Part shown: positions 49,455 through 57,948 of the stretch, piece by piece
How positions within the stretch are numbered: the stretch's first letter is position 1
Layout of the letters: every line of letters starts with the position of its first letter
Source: Actinomycetota bacterium
GTDB lineage: Bacteria > Actinomycetota > UBA4738 > HRBIN12
Assembly (NCBI GenBank): GCA_035463115.1
Contig: DATHTO010000139.1
Coordinates: 3,461 to 67,460, forward strand
Direction: 5' to 3'
DNA: 64,000 nucleotides
Program-made: the position numbers and the translations under genes
Notes under the pieces: model-generated
What the model was told of the DNA's origin: nothing
Database searches by the model: none
Seen by the model: the letters and a program-made list of their open reading frames with translations, nothing else

Positions 49455-50141
49455 TCAGGCGAGCGCCGCGACGATCTCGTCGGCGCGCAGACGTCGGAAC
49501 TTCCGCCGCGCGGTGCGCGTGCGGTCGAGGACGCCGGCCTCGATCTGGTCGGGGAGGATCTGACGCGCCTCGGGGACCGCTGCGAGGGCGTCGACGGCGG
49601 ACCGGACGGCGCCGGCCAGATCGGCGCCGTCGCGGTACCGCGAACCCAAGGCCTGCGTCAGCTCCTCGGCGTGTCCGCCCATCGCGACGAACCGCTGCTC
49701 GTCGGTGACCGATCCGTCGAACAGGATGTGGTACATCGCCGTGCCCGCCTCTTCGCCGTCGACCTCTCCGACGAGCACCTCGACCTCGTAGGGCTTCATC
49801 TGTTGGGTGAAGATCGTCGAGAGCGACTGCGAGTACGCGTTCGCGAGATCGCGCGCCTTGACGTCTTCGCGGCCGTACGCGTAGCCGCGGAGGTCGGCGA
49901 GGCGGATCCCCGCGATCCGCAGCTCCTCGAACTCGCTGTACTTGCCGACGCCGGCGAACGCGATGTGGTCGTAGATCTCGCTGATCTTGTGCAACGTCGC
50001 GCTCGGGTTCTCGGCCACGAAGAGGAGGCCGTCGGCGAACTCGAGCCCGACCACGGAGCGACCGCGCGCGATGCCCTTGTGGGCGTAGTCGGAGCGGTCC
50101 TTCATCAGCTGCTCGGGGGCGACGTACGGCATGAAGCTCAT
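49455..50141 (-). CDS. prcA: 20S proteasome alpha subunit
   Basis: 228 aa reading YVAPEQLMKDRSDYAHKGIARGRSVV. ATGA overlap with prcB. Confidence 0.95.
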   Translation of the reverse strand: MSFMPYVAPEQLMKDRSDYAHKGIARGRSVVGLEFADGLLFVAENPSATLHKISEIYDHIAFAGVGKYSEFEELRIAGIRLADLRGYAYGREDVKARDLANAYSQSLSTIFTQQMKPYEVEVLVGEVDGEEAGTAMYHILFDGSVTDEQRFVAMGGHAEELTQALGSRYRDGADLAGAVRSAVDALAAVPEARQILPDQIEAGVLDRTRTARRKFRRLRADEIVAALA

Positions 50142-50941
50142 CGGACACGCTCCTCGAGGACCGTGGCCACGGCGGCCGCGACCTCGGCCTCCGGCACCTC
50201 GTCGGCCCCACCGACCGTCACGGCGAGCAGCACGGGGTACGACCCGCGGGACGGGTCGGGGCCGCCGGTCGCGGAGTCGTCGTCGGCCGCGTCGATCAAG
50301 GCCTCGACCGCGACGCGGATCGCCTCGTCACGAGCGAGCTGGGGGCGCCACCGCTTCTTCAACGAGTTCTTCGCGGGCAACGAGCCCGATCCCGTCGCCT
50401 GGAAGTCGTCTTCCTCCCAGCGGCCGCCCGTCGCGTCGTAGTAGAAGATGCGGCCCTCGCCGCGCCGCTCGTCGAACCCGCCGAACAACGGGACCACCAC
50501 GAGCCCTTGCATCGCGAGCGGGAAGTTCTCACGGATCATCTGCGCGAGCCGGTTCGCCTTGCCCTCGAGCGAGAGCCGGCTCCCGGTGATCTTCTCGTAG
50601 TGCTCGAGCTCGAGCTGGAACAGCTTCACCATCTCGACGGCCTGCCCGGCGGCACCCGCGATCGCGATGGCGGAATAGTCGTCGGCCGGGAAGACCTTCC
50701 GCATCTTCGCGTCGGCGATGAGGTTCCCGGCCGTCGCACGCCGGTCGCCGGCCATCAGCATGCCGTCGGCGAACTTCAGCCCGAGGACCGTCGTGCCGTG
50801 CGGGACCGCGAGCGGCTCCGCCGCCCGGTCGCGGAGCGCCGGCGGGATCGCGTCGGGGCGCTCGTGCCGCACGAGCTCGAGGAAGCTGGGGCTCGCCCCG
50901 AACGGCGTCCGGGCGAGCGGGAGCTGGAGCTCGTCGGTCAC
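50138..50941 (-). CDS. prcB: 20S proteasome beta subunit
   Basis: 267 aa. A propeptide is followed by HG/TTVLGLKF (Thr-1). GTGA overlap with pup. Confidence 0.95.
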   Translation of the reverse strand: MTDELQLPLARTPFGASPSFLELVRHERPDAIPPALRDRAAEPLAVPHGTTVLGLKFADGMLMAGDRRATAGNLIADAKMRKVFPADDYSAIAIAGAAGQAVEMVKLFQLELEHYEKITGSRLSLEGKANRLAQMIRENFPLAMQGLVVVPLFGGFDERRGEGRIFYYDATGGRWEEDDFQATGSGSLPAKNSLKKRWRPQLARDEAIRVAVEALIDAADDDSATGGPDPSRGSYPVLLAVTVGGADEVPEAEVAAAVATVLEERVR

Positions 50942-51138
50942 TCGCCGCCCTTCTGGACGTACGACTTCACGAACTCCTCGGCGTTCTCCTCGAGGACCGA
51001 GTCGATCTCGTCGAGGATCTCGTCCATCTCGTCCTTGAGCTCCTCGGCCTTGGACGAGGAGGTGACCTGCCCGGCGTCGTCGCCGCCGTCACCATCGCCG
51101 CCCTTGCGTTGGATCCGCTTCTGTTCCTGCTCCGGCAT
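50938..51138 (-). CDS. pup: prokaryotic ubiquitin-like protein Pup (C-terminal GGE)
   Basis: Start is the internal ATG 51138, after GGAG. 66 aa reading MPEQEQKRIQRKGG...DEILDEIDSVLEENAEEFVKSYVQKGGE. Confidence 0.9.
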   Translation of the reverse strand: MPEQEQKRIQRKGGDGDGGDDAGQVTSSSKAEELKDEMDEILDEIDSVLEENAEEFVKSYVQKGGE

Positions 51139-51211: not shown

Positions 51212-52696
51212 CTAGCCCTGGAGCTTGTCGACGAGCTCGGCCGCGTCGGCCACCTCGTCGAGCAGGCGCTCCACGTGGATGCGCGTGCCGCGGAGGGGCT
51301 CCCGCATCGGGATGCGCTGCAGCGCGTCACGGCCGGTGTCCATGATGATGGAGTCCCACGAGGCCGCCGCGATCGCGTCCGGGAACCGCGTGATGCAGCG
51401 TCCTCGGAAGTACGCCCGGGTGTCCTCGGGCGGATGCATCATCGCCCGCTCCACCTCGTCGTCGAGGACCAGCCGCTCGACCTTGCCGGTCGCGGCGAGC
51501 CGGTGGTACAGCCCCTTCGTGCGCCGAACGTCGTGGTACTGGAGGTCGATCGCCCGGAGCTTCGGATCGGCCCACTCGAGCCGATCGCGCTCGCGGTAGC
51601 CCTGCAGCAGCCGTAGCTTCGCCACCCAATCGAGCTGCGCGCTGAGCTCCATCGGATCGCGTTCCAGCGCCGCGAGGACCTGCTCCCACCGCTCGAGGAT
51701 CGCCCGGTTCTCGGGCGTGTCGTCCTCGCGGTCGACGTACTTGCGCGCGAGCTCGAAGTACTCCCACTGCATCTGCGCGGCCGTGAGGCGCCGGCCGTCG
51801 CCGAGCTCGACGGTCGTGCGCAGGGTCACGTCGCGCGACACCTCGTGGATCGCCGCGACCGGGTTCACGATCGTCAGATCGGGCAGGAATCCGTCCTCGA
51901 TCATCTTGAGGACGATCGCGGTGGTTCCGAGCTTCAGGAAGATCGCGACCTCGCAGAGGTTCGCGTCACCGACGATCACGTGGAGCCGTCGGTAGCGGTC
52001 GGGGTCGGCGTGCGGCTCATCGCGGGTGTTGATGATCGGCCGCTTCAAGGTCGTCTCGAGGCCCACCTCGGTCTCGAAGAAATCCGACCGCTGGCTCAGC
52101 TGATAGACGTGGCGGCCGCGGTCGTCCCACTGCGCCTCGAGGCCGACCTTCCCGGCGCCGGTGATCACCTGCCGCGTCACGAAGAACGGCGTGAGGTCGC
52201 GCGCGATGTCGGCGAACGGCGTCGCTCGGTCGACGAGGTAGTTCTCGTGCGTCCCGTAGGAGTTGCCCTTGCCGTCGGAGTTGTTCTTGTAGATCGACAG
52301 CGGCGGGCCGTCGGGCATCTGCGCGGTGACCTCGTCGAGCGACCGCTCCAGGATCCGCTCCCCCGCCTTGTCGTGGACGACGAGATCACGGACGGACAGG
52401 CATTCCGGGGTCGAGTACTCGGGATGGGCGTGGTCGACGTAGTACCGCGCCCCGTTCGGCAGGATCACGTTCGCCAGGCCGAGGTCCTCGTCGCTCGCCT
52501 CGCGCGCCGGGACCGGCTCGAACCCACGGGCGTCGCGGAGCGGCGATTCGTCCTCGTAGTCCCATCGGATGCGCCGGAGCGCTCCCGCGAACGAGGAGAT
52601 CAGCAGGCTGGACGACAGGACGGGATTGAAATCGGGATGACCGGGAGCGGCGATCCCGTATTCCGTCTCCGTCCCGAGGACCTTGGGGATGGCCAC
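51212..52696 (-). CDS. dop: Pup deamidase/depupylase Dop
   Basis: 494 aa from GTG 52696, reading VLGTETEYG. It is colinear with PafA. Confidence 0.95.
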   Translation of the reverse strand: MAIPKVLGTETEYGIAAPGHPDFNPVLSSSLLISSFAGALRRIRWDYEDESPLRDARGFEPVPAREASDEDLGLANVILPNGARYYVDHAHPEYSTPECLSVRDLVVHDKAGERILERSLDEVTAQMPDGPPLSIYKNNSDGKGNSYGTHENYLVDRATPFADIARDLTPFFVTRQVITGAGKVGLEAQWDDRGRHVYQLSQRSDFFETEVGLETTLKRPIINTRDEPHADPDRYRRLHVIVGDANLCEVAIFLKLGTTAIVLKMIEDGFLPDLTIVNPVAAIHEVSRDVTLRTTVELGDGRRLTAAQMQWEYFELARKYVDREDDTPENRAILERWEQVLAALERDPMELSAQLDWVAKLRLLQGYRERDRLEWADPKLRAIDLQYHDVRRTKGLYHRLAATGKVERLVLDDEVERAMMHPPEDTRAYFRGRCITRFPDAIAAASWDSIIMDTGRDALQRIPMREPLRGTRIHVERLLDEVADAAELVDKLQG

Positions 52697-52705
52697 GCGG
52701 CCACC

Positions 52706-54433
52706 TTACAGGTACTGCCCCGCGTTGACGCGCTCGACCTGTCGACCGTCGCCGTCGCGCCCGAGGAGAGTGCGGACGTACACGATCCGCTCGCCCTTCT
52801 TGCCCGAGATCCGCGCCCAGTCGTCGGGGTTCGTCGTGTTCGGGAGGTCCTCGTTCTCCTTGAACTCGTCGCGGATCGCGGTGAACAGATCGTCGCCCTT
52901 GATGCCCTTCTCACCGGTCTGCAGGAAGCGCTTGATCGCGTCCTTCTTCGCCCGTCGGACGATGTTCTCGATCATCGCGCCGGAGTTGAAGTCCTTGAAG
53001 TAGAGGATCTCCTTGTCGCCGCTCGCGTACGTGACCTCGAGGAACCGGTTCTCGTCGGACGGCGCGTACATGCGCTCGACGGTCTTCTCGATCATCCGCC
53101 GGCACGCGGCCGCGATGTCGTCGCCGTAGCGCTCGATCTCGTCGGGATGGATCGGAACCGACGGGTGCAGGTACTTCGACATGATGTCGGCTGCCTGTGA
53201 CTGGTTCGGCCGCTCGATCTTGATCTTCACGTCGAGCCGGCCGGGACGCAGGATCGCCGGATCGATCAGATCCTCGCGGTTCGAGGCGCCGATCACGATC
53301 ACGTCCTTGAGCGTCTCGACGCCGTCGAGCTCGGAGAGGAGCTGCGGCACGATCGTCGATTCGACGTCGCTCGAGATGCCCGTGCCCCGCGTGCGGAAGA
53401 TCGAGTCCATCTCGTCGAAGAACACGATGACCGGAAGACCCTCTTCGCTGCGCTCCTTCGCGCGCTGGAAGATCTCGCGGATCTGCCGTTCGGTCTCGCC
53501 GACGTACTTGTTCAGGAGCTCGGGCCCCTTCACGTTCAGGAAGTAGCTGCGTGCGTCGTCGCGGCCGGTGCGCTCGGCGACCTTCTCGGCGAGCGACTTC
53601 GCGACCGCCTTCGCGATCAGCGTCTTGCCGCAGCCGGGAGGGCCGTACAGCAGCACGCCCTTCGGCGGCTCGAGCTGGTGCTCGTTGAAGAGCTCGGCGT
53701 ACAGGAACGGGAGCTCCACGGCGTCGCGGATCGCCTCGATCTGCCCCTCGAGCCCGCCGATGTCCTCGTAGCTCACGTCGGGGATCTCTTCGAGGACGAG
53801 CTCCTCGACCTCCTCCTTCGGAAGGAGCTCGGTGATCGCCATCGCGCGTGCGTCGAAGAGCACGTGATCGCCGGCCCGGCAGCCCAGCTCGAGCAGCTCG
53901 CCGGCCATATACACGACGTGCTCCTCGTCACCGCGCCCGACCACGACGGCGCGGTCGGAGCCGAGGCGGTCCTTCACCTTCGCGACCTCGCCGGCGCGGT
54001 CGGGCTCGAGGACCTCGACCACGTTCAGCGACTCGTTCAAGATCACCTGGGCCCCCGCGGGGATCTTGGCCGTGTCGACGTCGGGCGCCGGGAGCACCCG
54101 CATCTTGCGGCCGGCGGTCACGACGTCCATCGAGCCGTCGTCGTTGATGCGGAGGAACACGCCGAACGTGCTCGGCGGCTGGGAGAGCTTCTCGACCTCG
54201 TGCGCCAGGGCCTCGATGCGGTCGCGCTCGCCGCGGAGCGCATCGGCGAGCTTCTGGTTCTGGCCCATCGCCTTGACGAGCTGCTCACGCGTTTCGACGA
54301 GCTTCTCCTCGAGGATCGTCACCTGGCGCGGAGCGTTCGTGAGGCGGCGACGCAGCAGGCCGATCTCGTCCTCGAGGAAGCGGACCTGCGAACGCAGGTC
54401 TTCGACGTGCTCGTGCTCGTTCCGGTCGGGCAT
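52706..54433 (-). CDS. mpa: proteasome-associated AAA ATPase Mpa/ARC
   Basis: ATG 54433 follows GGAGG. It has an N-terminal coiled coil, OB domains, Walker A GPPGCGKT, Walker [10 protein letters not shown], and a C-terminal GQYL. Confidence 0.95.
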
Positions 54434-54590
54434 GCGGTTCCACCTCCAGCGAGGATCTCGCCCCCGGTCGGGAGGCCCAGCAGGGCTTCCCACCGCTCTT
54501 CCCGTTATGTACGGCAGCCGAGACCGGAAGGCTTAGGCCCATTTTCGGGGTATCTGCCGACACCGACGAGAACCGCAGGTCAGCGCGGCT

Positions 54591-55370
54591 TCAGGACAGC
54601 CGTCGGGCGATCGTGAGGAAGCCGGTGTGGCCGATCATGCGGTGGTCCGGGCGGACGCTCCGTTCCGCGACGTGCCAGCCTCGCCGCATCACCTCGAACG
54701 TCTCGAGGTGCACGAAGCCGTGGGACGGCAGCGCGAGGACGAGCTGCTGCACCTGGATCGTCGTCGGCAGGTACGCGCAGCACACGGCGCCCGCCTCGAG
54801 CACCCCGTGGAGCGCGTCGAGCGGCGCCCACGGTTCCGGGAGATCGAGGACGGCTCGGTCGAAGCGTTCCTCCGACCCGCCGATCCCGGCGAGATCACCG
54901 AGCCGCAGCTCCAGATGGTCGGGGAGCTTCCCGAAGAACGCCTCGACGTTCTCGATCGCGCGATCCCGGTGCTCCGGCCGCTGCTCGTACGAGACCACCC
55001 GCCCGTCGGCGCCCACCGCACGGCACAGCGCGATCGTCAGGGCGCCCGACCCCGTCCCCGCCTCGACGACGCGCGCGCCGGGATGGATGTCGGCGTACGT
55101 CACGATCGGCCCGAGGTCCTTCGGGTACACGACCTGCGCGCCGCGCGGCATCTTCAGCACGTAGTCGGCGAAGCGCGGGCGGAACGCGAGCAGGACCATG
55201 CCGGCCGAGGTCTCGAACCGTGTGCCCTCGGCCCGACCCAGGACCTCGTCGTGCGCCAGCGAGCCGGAGTGGGTGTGGAACGTGCCGCCGGCCTGGAGCT
55301 TCACGAGGTACTGGCGGTCCCGCTGATCGACGAAGAGGACGCGCTCCCCCGCCTCGAAGGGGGCCCCCAT
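54591..55370 (-). CDS. trmI: tRNA (adenine58-N1)-methyltransferase TrmI
   Basis: 259 aa with the SAM motif VVEAGTGSGALT, the TrmI/Gcd14 layout, and synteny with Rv2118c next to mpa. Confidence 0.85.
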   Translation of the reverse strand: MGAPFEAGERVLFVDQRDRQYLVKLQAGGTFHTHSGSLAHDEVLGRAEGTRFETSAGMVLLAFRPRFADYVLKMPRGAQVVYPKDLGPIVTYADIHPGARVVEAGTGSGALTIALCRAVGADGRVVSYEQRPEHRDRAIENVEAFFGKLPDHLELRLGDLAGIGGSEERFDRAVLDLPEPWAPLDALHGVLEAGAVCCAYLPTTIQVQQLVLALPSHGFVHLETFEVMRRGWHVAERSVRPDHRMIGHTGFLTIARRLS

Positions 55371-55373
55371 CGC

Positions 55374-56399
55374 TCAGCGCGCCTCGACGCCGTAGAGCTC
55401 CGCCGGGAGCACCTCGTCGGCGAGCTCCTCGGCCTCCTGCCGCTCGTTCCCGCGCCCCCCGGCTCCGTCGGACCCGTCGCGCTGCGGCTCGGGCGTGACG
55501 AGCCGCCGCCCGAGGATCTGGGCTTGCGCACGACAGAACGCGCAGAAGCGCCCGGTGGTCGGCTGCCCGCACGAGGCGCACGTCGTGAGCTCGGCGTCGT
55601 CGGCCGCCGTGAAGAGCGCCCGGCCGCGATCGAGGTACCCGAACAGGAACTGCGACTTCGTGCCGGGCGACGTCGACTCGATCGCGTTCATCGCGTCCTT
55701 GTACCGGAGCTGGGTGTTGCCGGCGACGAGCGGACACTCCTCGACGACGTAGTCGATGCCGCGCAGGAACGCGTACGCCGCCGTCTCGAGCTCCGAGAGG
55801 CGGAAGAGCGGCTTGACCTTCTTCACCATGCCGTCCTTCGCCGGCAGCACGGGCGACTGCCGCGCGATGTACTCGGTCTGCCACCGGAGCGTGTTGCCCA
55901 GCAGGGTCGCCGCCTCGTCGTCCAGGTTGTGCCCGGTGGCGATCACGTCGTAGCCGCGGTCGAGGGCTGCCCTGTTGAACACGTATCGCTTCGACAGGCC
56001 GCAGACGGCGCACGTCGAACGCGAGCCCTTCCGGCCCGCGGTCGGGATGTCGAACCCGTAGTCCTCGGCGAGGTCGACCACGTGGAGGGTCGCGTTCCGG
56101 CTCGCCGCGAAGGCGCGGGTGACCTCGGCGGACCGGTCGGAGTAGCTGCCGATCCCGAGGCCCAGGTACAGCCCGTCGGCGGCGAAGCCGAGGTCGAGGA
56201 GCGTGTCCCACAGGGCGAGAGAGTCCTTGCCGCCCGAGACGGCGACGAGGACCCGTTCGTCGGCATCCAGCATGTGCCACTTCGCGATCGCTCGCTCGAC
56301 CTGCCCGCGGAACACGTGCTCGAAGCATGCCCGGCAGTAGCCGGCGTTGTGTCGCCGCACCTCGATCACCGCCGGCGCGCCGCAGCGCGTGCATCTCAT
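55374..56399 (-). CDS. ttuA: TtuA-like PP-loop tRNA 2-thiolation ATPase with N- and C-terminal zinc fingers
   Basis: It has CTRCG...CRAC, the PP-loop SGGKDS, the Fe-S Cys context STCAVCG, GHNLDDE, and CASCG...CAFC. Confidence 0.75.
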   Translation of the reverse strand: MRCTRCGAPAVIEVRRHNAGYCRACFEHVFRGQVERAIAKWHMLDADERVLVAVSGGKDSLALWDTLLDLGFAADGLYLGLGIGSYSDRSAEVTRAFAASRNATLHVVDLAEDYGFDIPTAGRKGSRSTCAVCGLSKRYVFNRAALDRGYDVIATGHNLDDEAATLLGNTLRWQTEYIARQSPVLPAKDGMVKKVKPLFRLSELETAAYAFLRGIDYVVEECPLVAGNTQLRYKDAMNAIESTSPGTKSQFLFGYLDRGRALFTAADDAELTTCASCGQPTTGRFCAFCRAQAQILGRRLVTPEPQRDGSDGAGGRGNERQEAEELADEVLPAELYGVEAR

Positions 56400-56599
56400 C
56401 GCTCCGCGCCTCCGCTGATCACCGGTCGGATCTCGATCTCCTCGCCGTCGTCGACGCGGGTCTCACGCGTGACGAGCTCCCCTGCACGGATCACGAGGAC
56501 GGTGTCGGGGTTCACGCCGAGCTCGGCCAGCACGTCGCGCACGGCGCGGCCGCCCGCGACGTCGACCTCGCGGTCGGGGTTCCGGAGCCTGACCTTCAC
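56396..56599 (-). CDS. ThiS/MoaD/TtuB-like ubiquitin-fold sulfur carrier with a GG-AER C-terminus
   Basis: 67 aa from GTG 56599, ending ...DDGEEIEIRPVISGGAER. ATGA overlap with the ttuA-like gene. Confidence 0.65.
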   Translation of the reverse strand: MKVRLRNPDREVDVAGGRAVRDVLAELGVNPDTVLVIRAGELVTRETRVDDGEEIEIRPVISGGAER

Positions 56600-56695
56600 C
56601 GGCTCAGGCTAGCGCAGCCGCCCGGACCGCCGACGCACGGCGCGTGCGACCGCGACCCTCGCCCCCGCACCGGGCCGATCCGCAGGACCCGCGGA

Positions 56696-57799
56696 TCACG
56701 GGAGGTCGTCGACGGGCAGCGGACGCGTTCCGAGCGTCACCTGCACGGTCTCTCGCTCGCCGTCGGAGCGCACGACGACGACGTCGACGACGTCCCCGGG
56801 ACGAAGGTCCGCGAGGACCTCCTGGAGCCTGACCGAGGTATCGATCTCGCGTCCGTCGATCTCGAGGATCACGTCGCCCTGTTCGATCCCGGCTTCTTCG
56901 GCGGGGCCGTCACCGGTGGTTCCGAGGACGACGACGCCGTCCTCCACCGGCAGGTCGAGCTCGAACGCGACGTCGGCATCGTTGTCGCGCGTCGAGACGC
57001 CGAGGTACGCGGCCGCGGCGAGCGGCTCCTCGATCGACTCCTCGATGACGGGCTTCGCCCGGTCGATCGGGATCGCGAAGCCGATGTTCTCCGCGCCGTC
57101 GTTGCCGGCCGTGTTGATGCCGATGACCCGGCCCTGCATGTCGACGAGGGGGCCGCCGGAGTTCCCGGGATTGATCGCGGCGTCGGTCTGGATCACGCTC
57201 GGATACGTCCGGACGCCCTCGGGGCACGCCGATTCGGGGCACCCGGGATCCTGCGCCTGGATCGTGCGGTCCAGCGACGACACGATGCCGGTCGTCACGG
57301 TCGGGCCTCCTTCGAGCCCCAGGGCGTAGCCGAGCGCGACGACGCGTTGACCGAGGCGCACCGCGGTCGAGTCGGCCAGCGCGACGGTCGGCAGGGACGC
57401 GTCGGGCACATCGAGGACCGCGAGGTCGTTCTCGCAGTCGCCGCCGATCACCCGTGCGTCGAAGCGCTCGGGCCGCTCGTCCGACGACGAGACGATGATC
57501 CGCGAGGCCCCTTCGATCACGTGGCAGTTCGTCACGACCACACCGTCGGCGACCACGAAGCCGGTCCCCACGCCCTGGCCTTCGGTGAAATCGGCGCGGA
57601 ACACGTCGGTCGTCACGCTGACGACCGACGGGAGCACCCGGTCCACGACGGCGGCCACGGGTTCGCGGCTCTTCGGGATCGGTTGGGAGCTCGACCGCAG
57701 CGACGTGCCGCTGGGCGACCCGGACGTCGCGCCGAAGTCCACGGAGCACGACGCGGCCGCGAGCGCGATCACGGCGGCGAGCAGGATGGTCCGGCGCAT
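56696..57799 (-). CDS. HtrA/DegP-family serine protease with a PDZ domain (probable lipoprotein)
   Basis: ATG 57799 lies 4 nt after GGAGGA. The signal/lipobox region reads MRRTILLAAVIALAAASC. The catalytic triad contexts are TNCHVI, NDLAVL, and GNSGGP. A PDZ domain sits at the C-terminus. Confidence 0.85.
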   Translation of the reverse strand: MRRTILLAAVIALAAASCSVDFGATSGSPSGTSLRSSSQPIPKSREPVAAVVDRVLPSVVSVTTDVFRADFTEGQGVGTGFVVADGVVVTNCHVIEGASRIIVSSSDERPERFDARVIGGDCENDLAVLDVPDASLPTVALADSTAVRLGQRVVALGYALGLEGGPTVTTGIVSSLDRTIQAQDPGCPESACPEGVRTYPSVIQTDAAINPGNSGGPLVDMQGRVIGINTAGNDGAENIGFAIPIDRAKPVIEESIEEPLAAAAYLGVSTRDNDADVAFELDLPVEDGVVVLGTTGDGPAEEAGIEQGDVILEIDGREIDTSVRLQEVLADLRPGDVVDVVVVRSDGERETVQVTLGTRPLPVDDLP

Positions 57800-57948
57800 C
57801 GGGTCCTCCACGGGTCGTCACGACGGGAGCGGGAACACGCCCGTCATTCGACGGTACCCGTTCCGGGGTTCGCCGATGCGGCCCGAGGACGTGCAGACGT
57901 CGAGGGCGGCCTCCTGGAGGCCCCCTCGACGCCGGACGACGGAGCGGC

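What the first reader, a model, noticed from the sequence alone, without database searches (positions are those of the whole stretch)
54591..56599. ttuB-like / ttuA-like / trmI operon next to the Pup-proteasome locus, with a sulfur carrier bearing a GG-AER tail
Three minus-strand genes are packed tightly, with an ATGA overlap at 56396-56399 and a 3-nt gap at 55371-55373. They encode a 67-aa beta-grasp protein ending ISGGAER, a TtuA-type PP-loop thiolase with two zinc fingers, and TrmI. In Thermus, TtuA/TtuB make s2T54 and TrmI makes m1A58 in the same T-loop. m1A58 is reported to favour 2-thiolation, so the physical linkage is functionally coherent and hints at a thermotolerant host. Two points stand out. 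First, the carrier has three residues after the Gly-Gly, so it needs C-terminal processing (a JAMM/MPN-type peptidase in other systems), and no such gene is in the window. Second, a ubiquitin-fold carrier, which in Thermus also conjugates to proteins, sits about 2 kb from mpa/dop/pup, placing two ubiquitin-like systems side by side.
Basis: partly seen in the sequence, partly recalled or inferred. Interest (0 to 1): 0.6.

Follow-up and report, generated by a model that had tools for sequence, protein, structure and literature searches.

The report
tRNA T-loop thiolation operon, pro-form carrier
Three tightly packed genes in a soil actinobacterium encode the known TtuB/TtuA tRNA-thiolation pair plus the TrmI tRNA methylase, and the carrier's extra residues after Gly-Gly are a lineage-wide habit (sometimes a full carrier-enzyme fusion), so the system is known but comes in an undescribed precursor form.

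Summary
Three minus-strand genes sit at the stated coordinates, with the ATGA overlap and the 3-nt gap. They are clear orthologues of Thermus TtuB, TtuA and TrmI.

- **Tail.** The GG-AER tail is not peculiar to this genome. All 120 closest TtuB homologues carry 2-3 variable residues after GG. Of 80 related loci, only 2-3 have a bare GG and 25 encode in-frame TtuB-TtuA fusions.
- **Missing partners.** They are in the genome on another contig: a single JAMM peptidase lies beside the only E1, followed by a CysO-like carrier. This cluster is conserved in relatives.
- **Product.** No TrmFO or TrmA exists in this family, so the likely product is s2U54, not s2T54.
- **Thermotolerance.** This is not supported. 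About a third of sampled Actinomycetota genomes carry TtuA, and the nearest relatives are environmental MAGs.
- **Pup-proteasome neighbourhood.** It reflects old trmI-mpa synteny. Relatives lacking ttuBA keep HtrA-TrmI-Mpa.

The tail probably exists because the Gly-Gly codons (GGAGG) act as the ribosome-binding site for ttuA. This is a new variant of a known kind, of moderate interest. Expression could not be tested.

The parts
56396..56599 (-). ttuB: 67-aa ThiS-family (beta-grasp) sulfur carrier with a GTG start. It is encoded as a precursor ending ISGG-AER, so the mature form would end at Gly64.
   Evidence: Pfam ThiS 34.5 bits. Best PDB hit is T. thermophilus TtuB, E 1e-11, aligned up to the terminal GG. 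There are 1593 homologues, and the top 120 all carry 2-3-residue tails.
56409..56413 (-). GGAGG formed by the Gly63-Gly64 codons (GGA GGC), 9 nt upstream of the ttuA ATG. Proposed Shine-Dalgarno site for ttuA.
   Evidence: Sequence. GGA makes up only 10% of Gly codons in this window's genes. A purine-ending first Gly codon is seen in 37 of 54 separate-gene loci against 5 of 25 fused loci, Fisher p = 8e-5. The phylogenetically controlled test is underpowered.
56396..56399 (-). ATGA overlap of the ttuB stop and the ttuA start (translational coupling).
   Evidence: The same 4-nt overlap is seen in most related loci with separate genes.
55374..56399 (-). ttuA: [4Fe-4S]-type PP-loop tRNA U54 2-sulfurtransferase with N- and C-terminal zinc fingers and a roughly 45-aa low-complexity C-terminal tail.
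   Evidence: PF22082 and PF01171. NCBIfam scores: TtuA 277 bits, NcsA 114, TtcA 70. PDB scores: Thermus TtuA 314 bits, P. horikoshii TtuA 252, NcsA 81. SGGKDS, the Cys130/133/222 equivalents and both zinc fingers are aligned.
54591..55370 (-). trmI: tRNA (adenine58-N1)-methyltransferase.
   Evidence: GCD14 101 bits and TrmI-like_N 61 bits. Scores 244 bits to M. tuberculosis Rv2118c and 168 bits to T. thermophilus TrmI.
56606..56611 (-). TAGCCT, a -10-like TANNNT hexamer ending 6 nt before the ttuB GTG. Suggests a leaderless ttuB-ttuA-trmI transcript.
   Evidence: A TANNNT hexamer (usually TAGCCT) starts 12-13 nt upstream of the ttuB start in 38 of 79 related loci, and within -12 to -19 in about 65 of 79. 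No SD is visible upstream of ttuB. Function is inferred, not shown.
52706..54493 (-). mpa/arc proteasomal ATPase, the first gene of the Pup-proteasome block (dop 51212-52696, pup about 50938-51138, prcB 50138-50941, prcA 49455-50141). Neighbour by synteny, not part of the thiolation system.
   Evidence: TIGR03689 755 bits. ORFs. trmI-mpa adjacency persists in relatives lacking ttuBA.

Best explanation
This is a ttuB-ttuA-trmI operon that modifies the tRNA T-loop.

**Proposed pathway**
1. TrmI methylates A58. In Thermus, m1A58 accelerates the thiolation step.
2. TtuA, an iron-sulfur PP-loop enzyme, adenylates U54 and replaces the C2 oxygen with sulfur. The sulfur is delivered as a thiocarboxylate on the C-terminal glycine of TtuB.
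3. TtuB is translated as a precursor (GG-AER) and must be cut after Gly64.
4. The most likely maturase is the only Prok-JAB/JAMM peptidase in the genome (contig C167, 3886-4287). It sits directly upstream of the only MoeB/ThiF-type E1 and a CysO-like carrier.
5. That E1 would then adenylate and thiocarboxylate mature TtuB, much as the single E1 TtuC serves several carriers in Thermus.

**Why the tail exists.** The ttuB stop overlaps the ttuA start, and the Gly-Gly codons (GGAGG) provide the ribosome-binding site for ttuA 6-9 nt upstream. The 2-3 tail codons act as a spacer. They are free to vary and are discarded.

**Product and context.** The lineage lacks TrmFO and TrmA, so the product is probably s2U54 rather than m5s2U54. 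The Pup-proteasome genes are neighbours only because trmI-mpa is an old actinobacterial gene order.

**Shown:** gene identities, conserved catalytic residues, clade-wide tails and fusions, presence and conserved context of the JAMM and E1, and absence of known m5U54 methyltransferases.
**Inferred:** which protease cuts, that the E1 serves TtuB, the SD role of the GG codons, the leaderless promoter and the actual nucleoside made.
For: - **Gene identity.**. The TtuA alignment to Thermus TtuA conserves the PP-loop SGGKDS, the three cluster cysteines and both zinc fingers.
- **Substrates.** 46 of 53 predicted tRNA genes have the U54-U55-C56-R57-A58 T-loop. MnmA is present for s2U34, so TtuA is not needed at position 34.
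- **Linkage.** ttuB-ttuA-trmI is present in 80 of 80 related loci.
- **Tails.** 120 of 120 close homologues have variable 2-3-residue tails behind an invariant RPVISGG. Of 80 loci, about 50 carry 1-5-residue tails, a few carry longer ones, 25 are in-frame fusions with 3-24-residue linkers (several without an internal Met), and only 2-3 have a bare GG.
- **Fusion turnover.** The fused or separate state changed at least 8 times on the TtuA tree.
- **JAMM and E1.** The genome has one Prok-JAB hit (76.8 bits) and one full ThiF hit (285 bits), and they are adjacent. The JAMM carries the H-S-H-x7-S-x2-D motif and resembles P. furiosus JAMM1. The E1 scores 197 bits to E. coli MoeB.
- **Conserved cluster.** The selD-JAMM-E1-CysO(-CysM) cluster is conserved in relatives, and a JAMM is present in 19 of 20 genomes tested.
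- **Precedent.** JAMM peptidases cleave MoaD-MoaE linear fusions to expose the terminal Gly (PMC8832034).
- **SD idea.**
- **No m5U54 methylase.**. Thiolation and methylation of U54 are independent steps (PMC6418473). S. acidocaldarius, which has TtuA/TtuB but no TrmA, makes s2U54 (PMC7912444).
Against: - There is no experimental or expression evidence.
- The JAMM is not linked to ttuB, and it is also present in the relatives with a bare-GG TtuB. Its presence therefore does not discriminate. Its established role in M. tuberculosis is in the CysO pathway.
- One fused-TtuB genome showed no JAMM, although it is a MAG.
- Only the Prok-JAB model was searched, so other JAB or MPN families and other peptidases were not excluded.
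- The window TtuA scores below the NCBIfam equivalog cut-off (277 bits against 450). That model is built on Pyrococcus sequences.
- The link between SD use and Gly codon choice is not significant once phylogeny is controlled: only 3 well-supported independent pairs exist.
- The genome is 88% complete, so absence claims rest mainly on the 25 other family genomes.
- An unknown m5U54 methylase cannot be ruled out.
Confidence: 0.7

Rival explanations
1. The system works as described, but the tail or linker is removed by a protease other than the JAMM on contig C167. Candidates are a carboxypeptidase for short tails or an unrelated endopeptidase.
For: The JAMM is unlinked to ttuB and sits in a CysO/CysM-type cluster, where a CysO-cysteine hydrolase role is already known (Iyer 2006 operon type 4c). 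Presence of the JAMM does not track the tail state. One fused-TtuB genome lacks a detectable JAMM.
Against: Fusions need an endopeptidase that cuts exactly after GG, which is the characterised activity of prokaryotic JAMMs. All four ThiS-family carriers in this genome carry post-GG tails, which fits one general maturase. The JAMM is the only such gene found, and it lies beside the only E1.
Confidence: 0.15
2. TtuB is not the sulfur donor here. TtuA takes sulfide, or another donor, directly on its Fe-S cluster. The uncleaved TtuB, or TtuB domain, acts as a structural or regulatory partner.
For: A quarter to a third of relatives encode TtuB fused to TtuA. That fusion would block thiocarboxylation unless it is cut.
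Against: The C-terminal RPVISGG is invariant across more than 200 homologues while everything after it varies. This is the signature of a cleavage and activation site, not of an internal linker. An E1 and a JAMM are retained. The closest solved relative is the Thermus TtuA-TtuB pair.
Confidence: 0.1
3. The PP-loop enzyme acts on a different target, such as U34, C32, or a cofactor or natural product, rather than U54.
For: It scores below the NCBIfam TtuA equivalog cut-off. The lineage is not thermophilic, whereas reviews treat U54 thiolation as a thermophile trait.
Against: Scores favour TtuA by a wide margin: 314 bits to Thermus TtuA against 81 to the U34 thiolase NcsA, and 277 for TtuA against 70 for TtcA. 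MnmA for s2U34 is present. The gene is fixed next to trmI, the other T-loop enzyme, in 80 of 80 loci.
Confidence: 0.04
4. The proximity of TtuB to mpa/dop/pup reflects functional cross-talk between two ubiquitin-like tagging systems, with TtuB acting as a protein modifier that feeds the proteasome.
For: ttuBA-trmI-mpa-dop is conserved in nearly all of the 80 loci. TtuB conjugates to proteins in Thermus (PMC3980101).
Against: Same-family and same-order genomes lacking ttuBA keep HtrA-TrmI-Mpa intact. The adjacency therefore belongs to trmI, as it does in M. tuberculosis, where trmI (Rv2118c) lies near mpa (Rv2115c) by gene numbering (established knowledge). The Thermus TtuA acceptor lysines are not conserved. 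No E2- or E3-like gene was seen.
Confidence: 0.02

Closest known systems
Thermus thermophilus TtuA/TtuB/TtuC(/TtuD) m5s2U54 pathway with TrmI
   Same: TtuA is orthologous (314 bits, with all catalytic and metal-binding residues aligned) and so is TtuB. The ThiS-like carrier gene sits directly upstream of ttuA. An E1 of MoeB/ThiF type lies elsewhere in the genome and is probably shared among carriers. TrmI-made m1A58 is a positive determinant for thiolation.
   Different: - The carrier is encoded with residues after GG, or is fused to TtuA in relatives, whereas Thermus TtuB ends at GG.
- trmI is in the same operon.
- No TrmFO is present, so the likely product is s2U54.
- The hosts are non-thermophilic environmental Actinomycetota.
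- The TtuA lysines that accept TtuB conjugation are not conserved.
JAMM-processed carrier-enzyme fusions: D. radiodurans MoaD-MoaE with DR0402, H. volcanii HvJAMM1, M. tuberculosis MoaX
   Same: A sulfur-carrier beta-grasp domain is followed by extra sequence or by its partner enzyme, and must be cut after GG to become active. The peptidase is a stand-alone JAMM/MPN+ enzyme encoded elsewhere (PMC8832034).
   Different: The partner here is a tRNA thiolase (TtuA), not molybdopterin synthase. I found no report of TtuB-TtuA fusions or tailed TtuB.
M. tuberculosis CysO / Mec+ / CysM (/MoeZ) cysteine pathway; Iyer et al. 2006 operon type 4c (ThiS/MoaD + E1 + JAB + cysteine synthase)
   Same: The off-window cluster JAMM-E1-CysO-like-(CysM) on contig C167 matches this operon type. 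The CysO-like carrier ends GG-S here, and about half of its relatives also carry 1-2 extra residues.
   Different: Here the same JAMM and E1 are proposed to serve an unlinked TtuB as well. The E1 has no rhodanese domain. selD lies immediately upstream.
Sulfolobus acidocaldarius T-loop: s2U54 with TtuA/TtuB but no TrmA
   Same: It has a TtuA/TtuB pair in a genome with no m5U54 methyltransferase and makes unmethylated s2U54 (PMC7912444).
   Different: It is a hyperthermophilic archaeon. Nothing is known there about carrier tails.

Membership tests
TtuA (tRNA U54 2-sulfurtransferase, TtuA/Ncs6 group of PP-loop ATPases) | PP-loop SGGKDS ATP-binding motif | tested here: met
   SGGKDS at residues 54-59, aligned to the Thermus TtuA motif. 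PF01171 35 bits.
TtuA (tRNA U54 2-sulfurtransferase, TtuA/Ncs6 group of PP-loop ATPases) | Three cysteines that ligate the [4Fe-4S] cluster (Cys130, Cys133 and Cys222 in T. thermophilus numbering) | tested here: met
   STCAVCG and EECP align column for column with ACSACG and EECP of 5gha. The residue numbering is from memory.
TtuA (tRNA U54 2-sulfurtransferase, TtuA/Ncs6 group of PP-loop ATPases) | N-terminal and C-terminal CxxC...CxxC/H zinc fingers | tested here: met
   PF22082 TtuA_LIM_N 37 bits. C3/C6/C22/C25 and CASCG...CAFC are aligned.
TtuA (tRNA U54 2-sulfurtransferase, TtuA/Ncs6 group of PP-loop ATPases) | Closer to characterised TtuA than to NcsA/Ncs6 (U34) or TtcA (C32) | tested here: met
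   PDB: 314 and 252 bits to the TtuAs against 81 to NcsA. NCBIfam: 277 against 114 and 70.
TtuA (tRNA U54 2-sulfurtransferase, TtuA/Ncs6 group of PP-loop ATPases) | Passes the NCBIfam equivalog cut-off (NF049949, Pyrococcus-type TtuA) | tested here: not met
   277 bits against a cut-off of 450. The model is built on archaeal sequences, and the bacterial Thermus enzyme is the closer relative.
TtuA (tRNA U54 2-sulfurtransferase, TtuA/Ncs6 group of PP-loop ATPases) | Thiolates position 54 of tRNA | not testable with these tools
   Needs tRNA mass spectrometry. Indirect support: U54/A58 T-loops in 46 of 53 tRNA genes, and MnmA covers U34.
TtuB (ThiS-family sulfur carrier for TtuA) | Small beta-grasp ThiS-family protein encoded next to ttuA | tested here: met
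   PF02597 34.5 bits. Best PDB hit is TtuB. It overlaps ttuA by 4 nt.
TtuB (ThiS-family sulfur carrier for TtuA) | Gly-Gly at the extreme C-terminus, ready for adenylation | tested here: not met
   The gene encodes GG-AER. The GG aligns with the terminal GG of Thermus TtuB. It is a precursor form, as in nearly all clade members.
TtuB (ThiS-family sulfur carrier for TtuA) | Activated by an E1 (TtuC/MoeB-type) to a thiocarboxylate | tested here: inconclusive
   One MoeB/ThiF-type E1 is present in the genome. Its action on TtuB is inferred.
TrmI (tRNA m1A58 methyltransferase) | GCD14-type Rossmann methyltransferase with a TrmI-like N-terminal domain, orthologous to characterised TrmI | tested here: met
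   PF08704 101 bits and PF14801 61 bits. 244 bits to Rv2118c and 168 bits to Thermus TrmI over the full length.
Prokaryotic JAMM/MPN+ peptidase (Mec+ / HvJAMM1 / DR0402 type), the off-window partner | E...H-S/T-H-x7-S-x2-D zinc-binding motif in a stand-alone protein of about 130-150 aa | tested here: met
   PF14464 76.8 bits. HSHTHSEAYPSETD and NECCG are present. E 6e-7 to P. furiosus JAMM1.
Prokaryotic JAMM/MPN+ peptidase (Mec+ / HvJAMM1 / DR0402 type), the off-window partner | Cleaves after the GG of this TtuB | not testable with these tools
   Needs an in vitro cleavage assay or a knockout.

The most novel reading that the evidence does not exclude
Across a large part of non-thermophilic Actinomycetota, the T-loop is routinely 2-thiolated at an unmethylated U54 (s2U54), in concert with m1A58. 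The carrier TtuB is always made as a pro-protein or as a TtuB-TtuA polyprotein, which a single housekeeping JAMM must cut. This would be a bacterial counterpart of ubiquitin-precursor processing. It would make carrier maturation a control point linking tRNA thiolation, cysteine synthesis and other sulfur-carrier pathways.
Probability: 0.35. Interest if true: 0.55.

Novelty: new variant of a known kind. Interest (0 to 1): 0.4.

Why it matters
U54 thiolation by TtuA/TtuB is treated in reviews as a heat adaptation of thermophiles. Here the complete system is hard-wired to trmI in about a third of sampled Actinomycetota genomes, most of them environmental MAGs. This suggests the modification has a wider role, perhaps stabilising the T-loop where T54 is absent.

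The obligatory precursor or fusion form of TtuB adds tRNA thiolation to the short list of sulfur-carrier pathways that need JAMM maturation. It also offers natural TtuB-TtuA fusions as convenient substrates for studying bacterial JAMM specificity. None of this changes the basic mechanism, so the value is incremental.

Tried and rejected
- **HtrA-like protease directly upstream (56696-57811) as the TtuB maturase.** Rejected. It has a signal peptide with a lipobox and a PDZ domain, so it is extracytoplasmic. It is not adjacent in the more distant lineages that still have tails or fusions.
- **Thermotolerant host.** Rejected on distribution.
- **Cross-talk with Pup.** Rejected. ttuBA is cleanly absent from same-family and same-order genomes that keep HtrA-TrmI-Mpa.
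- **JAMM presence as a discriminator of tail state.** Uninformative. The JAMM is present in fused, tailed and bare-GG genomes alike.
- **Phylogenetically controlled test of the link between GG codons and SD use.** Underpowered, with 3 supported pairs. Only the raw contingency is significant.
- **Consensus sigma-70 promoter and intrinsic-terminator scans of 54300-56900.** Found nothing.
- **Literature searches for tailed TtuB, TtuB-TtuA fusions or actinobacterial TtuA.** Found no prior description. The library is incomplete, so this is weak evidence of novelty.
Full report
**Observation.** They are 56599-56396 (67 aa, ends ISGGAER), 56399-55374 (341 aa) and 55370-54591 (259 aa). The ttuB stop and ttuA start share ATGA at 56399-56396, and three bases (55371-55373) separate ttuA from trmI. 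mpa begins 97 nt further on, followed by dop, pup, prcB and prcA.

**Identity of the genes.**
- The small protein belongs to the ThiS family (34.5 bits against a 22.5 cut-off). Its closest solved relative is T. thermophilus TtuB (E 1e-11), and the alignment ends at the Thermus terminal GG, leaving AER unmatched.
- The 341-aa protein has the TtuA N-terminal LIM-type zinc finger and a PP-loop domain.
- It scores 277 bits on the NCBIfam TtuA model, 114 on NcsA and 70 on TtcA. Against solved structures it scores 314 bits on Thermus TtuA, 252 on P. horikoshii TtuA and 81 on the U34 thiolase NcsA.
- The Thermus alignment conserves SGGKDS, the three Fe-S cysteines and both zinc fingers.
- The 277-bit score is below the curated equivalog cut-off of 450. 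I report this as a failed formal test of an archaeal-based model, not as evidence against orthology.
- The third protein is TrmI, at 244 bits to M. tuberculosis Rv2118c.
- The genome also has MnmA for s2U34. In addition, 46 of 53 predicted tRNA genes carry a U54-U55-C56-R57-A58 T-loop. Both enzymes therefore have substrates, and TtuA is not needed at position 34.

**The tail is a clade property.**
- Among 1593 homologues of the carrier, the 120 closest all have 2-3 residues after an invariant RPVISGG. The residues vary freely: AA is commonest, and AR, AG, AP, AVP, SER and others also occur.
- I fetched 80 related loci from species-representative genomes. All are uncultured Actinomycetota, Acidimicrobiia or Nitriliruptoria MAGs.
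- Every one of them carries ttuB-ttuA-trmI, and nearly all continue into mpa-dop.
- Only 2-3 of these loci have a bare GG. About 50 have 1-5-residue tails, usually 2 with the same ATGA overlap, and a few have longer ones.
- The remaining 25 encode TtuB and TtuA as one open frame. Linkers of 3-24 residues join GG to the first zinc-finger cysteine, and several linkers contain no Met.
- Proteins of 400-414 aa combining the ThiS and PP-loop domains are also in the protein database from several sources.
- On a TtuA tree, the fused or separate state changes at least 8 times.
- An invariant GG followed by free variation, or by the partner enzyme, is the signature of a cleavage site. The carrier must be cut before an E1 can adenylate it (established E1 chemistry).

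**Why a tail?**
- In the window, the Gly-Gly codons are GGA GGC. They form GGAGG nine bases before the ttuA ATG, although GGA makes up only 10% of Gly codons in the neighbouring genes.
- Across the relatives, the first Gly codon ends in a purine (GGAGG or GGGGG) in 37 of 54 loci with separate genes, but in only 5 of 25 fused loci. The odds ratio is 8.7 and Fisher p = 8e-5.
- Tails of 2-3 codons place this motif 6-9 nt from the start codon.
- I therefore propose that the diglycine codons double as the Shine-Dalgarno site for ttuA, and that the tail is the spacer.
- This is suggestive only. A test on phylogenetically independent pairs had just three supported pairs and no power.

**The supposedly missing partners.**
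- The genome is 2.9 Mb, 71% G+C, in 170 contigs and 88% complete. It has a single Prok-JAB/JAMM hit (76.8 bits) and a single full ThiF/E1 hit (285 bits). They are adjacent on contig C167.
- Translation of that contig shows four genes in order: a 133-aa JAMM with H-S-H-x7-S-x2-D, a MoeB-type E1 without a rhodanese domain, a CysO-like carrier ending AGG-S, and a CysM-like cysteine synthase. selD lies upstream.
- This is operon type 4c of Iyer et al. 2006 (PMC1779556).
- The cluster is conserved in relatives, and a JAMM is present in 19 of 20 genomes tested, usually as a single copy.
- All four ThiS-family carriers of this genome have residues after GG: AER, S, SR and about 30 residues. In relatives, CysO carries a tail only about half the time.
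- JAMM peptidases are known to cut MoaD-MoaE linear fusions and expose the terminal Gly (PMC8832034).
- The simplest model is one housekeeping JAMM and one E1 serving all the carriers. The weak point is that JAMM presence does not discriminate, because the bare-GG genomes have it too.

**Product.** No TrmFO and no TrmA-family methyltransferase is detectable in this genome or in 25 other genomes of the same family, while both models ring in the expected control genomes. Methylation and thiolation of U54 are independent steps (PMC6418473). Sulfolobus acidocaldarius, which has TtuA/TtuB but no TrmA, has s2U54 (PMC7912444). The likely product here is therefore s2U54, not s2T54.

**Thermophily and neighbourhood.**
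- A TtuA orthologue (E <= 1e-40) is present in 99 of 301 evenly sampled Actinomycetota genomes, covering 70 of 199 genera. The closest relatives are MAGs whose names point to soil and other non-thermal sources. The thermotolerance hint is not supported.
- In same-family and same-order genomes without TtuA, the locus reads HtrA-TrmI-Mpa, with ttuBA cleanly missing.
- The adjacency to the Pup-proteasome genes therefore belongs to trmI. M. tuberculosis shows the same arrangement, with trmI (Rv2118c) near mpa (Rv2115c); this is established gene numbering, not tested here.
- What is specific and constant is ttuBA next to trmI. This fits the documented stimulation of thiolation by m1A58.
- The Thermus TtuA lysines that accept TtuB are not conserved (PMC3980101). 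A protein-modifier role is therefore unsupported.

**Transcription.** Consensus sigma-70 and terminator scans found nothing. However, a TANNNT hexamer, usually TAGCCT, starts 12-13 nt upstream of the ttuB start codon in 38 of 79 loci, and nearby in most others, across classes. In the window it lies at 56611-56606, with no SD before the GTG. This suggests a leaderless operon transcript (inference).

**Novelty and limits.**
- Searches of the paper library found the Thermus pathway, JAMM processing of MoaD-MoaE, and ThiS/PP-loop gene associations in archaea. They found nothing on tailed TtuB, TtuB-TtuA fusions or actinobacterial TtuA. I rate this a new variant of a known kind.
- All functional steps beyond sequence identity are inferred.

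Noticed in passing
genome contigs C167:5160-5438(+), C54:20796-21041(-), C62:11344-11646(+) (outside the window): Every ThiS/MoaD-family carrier in this genome is encoded with residues after the Gly-Gly: the CysO-like one ends GG-S, the one on C54 ends GG-SR, and the one on C62 ends GG plus about 30 residues. The C54 carrier is followed by an ORF with repeated Asp-box-like SxDxGxTW motifs (judged by eye). An ATP-sulfurylase-like ORF (also by eye) lies about 1.5 kb downstream of the C62 carrier.
   Followed up: partly
window 56606-56611 (-), and the equivalent position in L009-L088: A TAGCCT (TANNNT) hexamer is conserved 12-13 nt upstream of the ttuB start codon across classes of Actinomycetota, with no Shine-Dalgarno. 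It is a likely -10 element of a leaderless transcript.
   Followed up: partly
L111-L117 (genomes of the same family or order without TtuA): The ttuB-ttuA pair is cleanly absent between HtrA and TrmI, leaving about 100-150 nt. It therefore behaves as a two-gene cassette gained or lost at one fixed site.
   Followed up: partly
genome contig C167:1811-2884(+); tRNA-SeC on C5:49007-49100: A selD-like (selenophosphate synthetase) gene sits immediately upstream of the JAMM-E1-CysO cluster, both here and in most relatives. A tRNA-Sec gene is also present. The meaning of the selD linkage to a sulfur-carrier cluster is unexplored.
   Followed up: no
whole genome and 25 genomes of the same family: No TrmA/RlmD-family (PF05958) and no TrmFO (TIGR00137) gene was found. 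The lineage appears to lack all known m5U methyltransferases of these two kinds, including the rRNA ones.
   Followed up: yes
window 55374-55508 (-): TtuA carries a roughly 45-residue Gly/Glu/Arg-rich C-terminal extension beyond the region aligned to Thermus TtuA. Its length varies among relatives (327-349 aa proteins).
   Followed up: no
window 56696-57811 (-): The HtrA-type serine protease with a PDZ domain and a lipoprotein-like signal (…AAASC) is the constant upstream neighbour of this locus in the closest clade. This holds whether or not ttuBA is present.
   Followed up: partly
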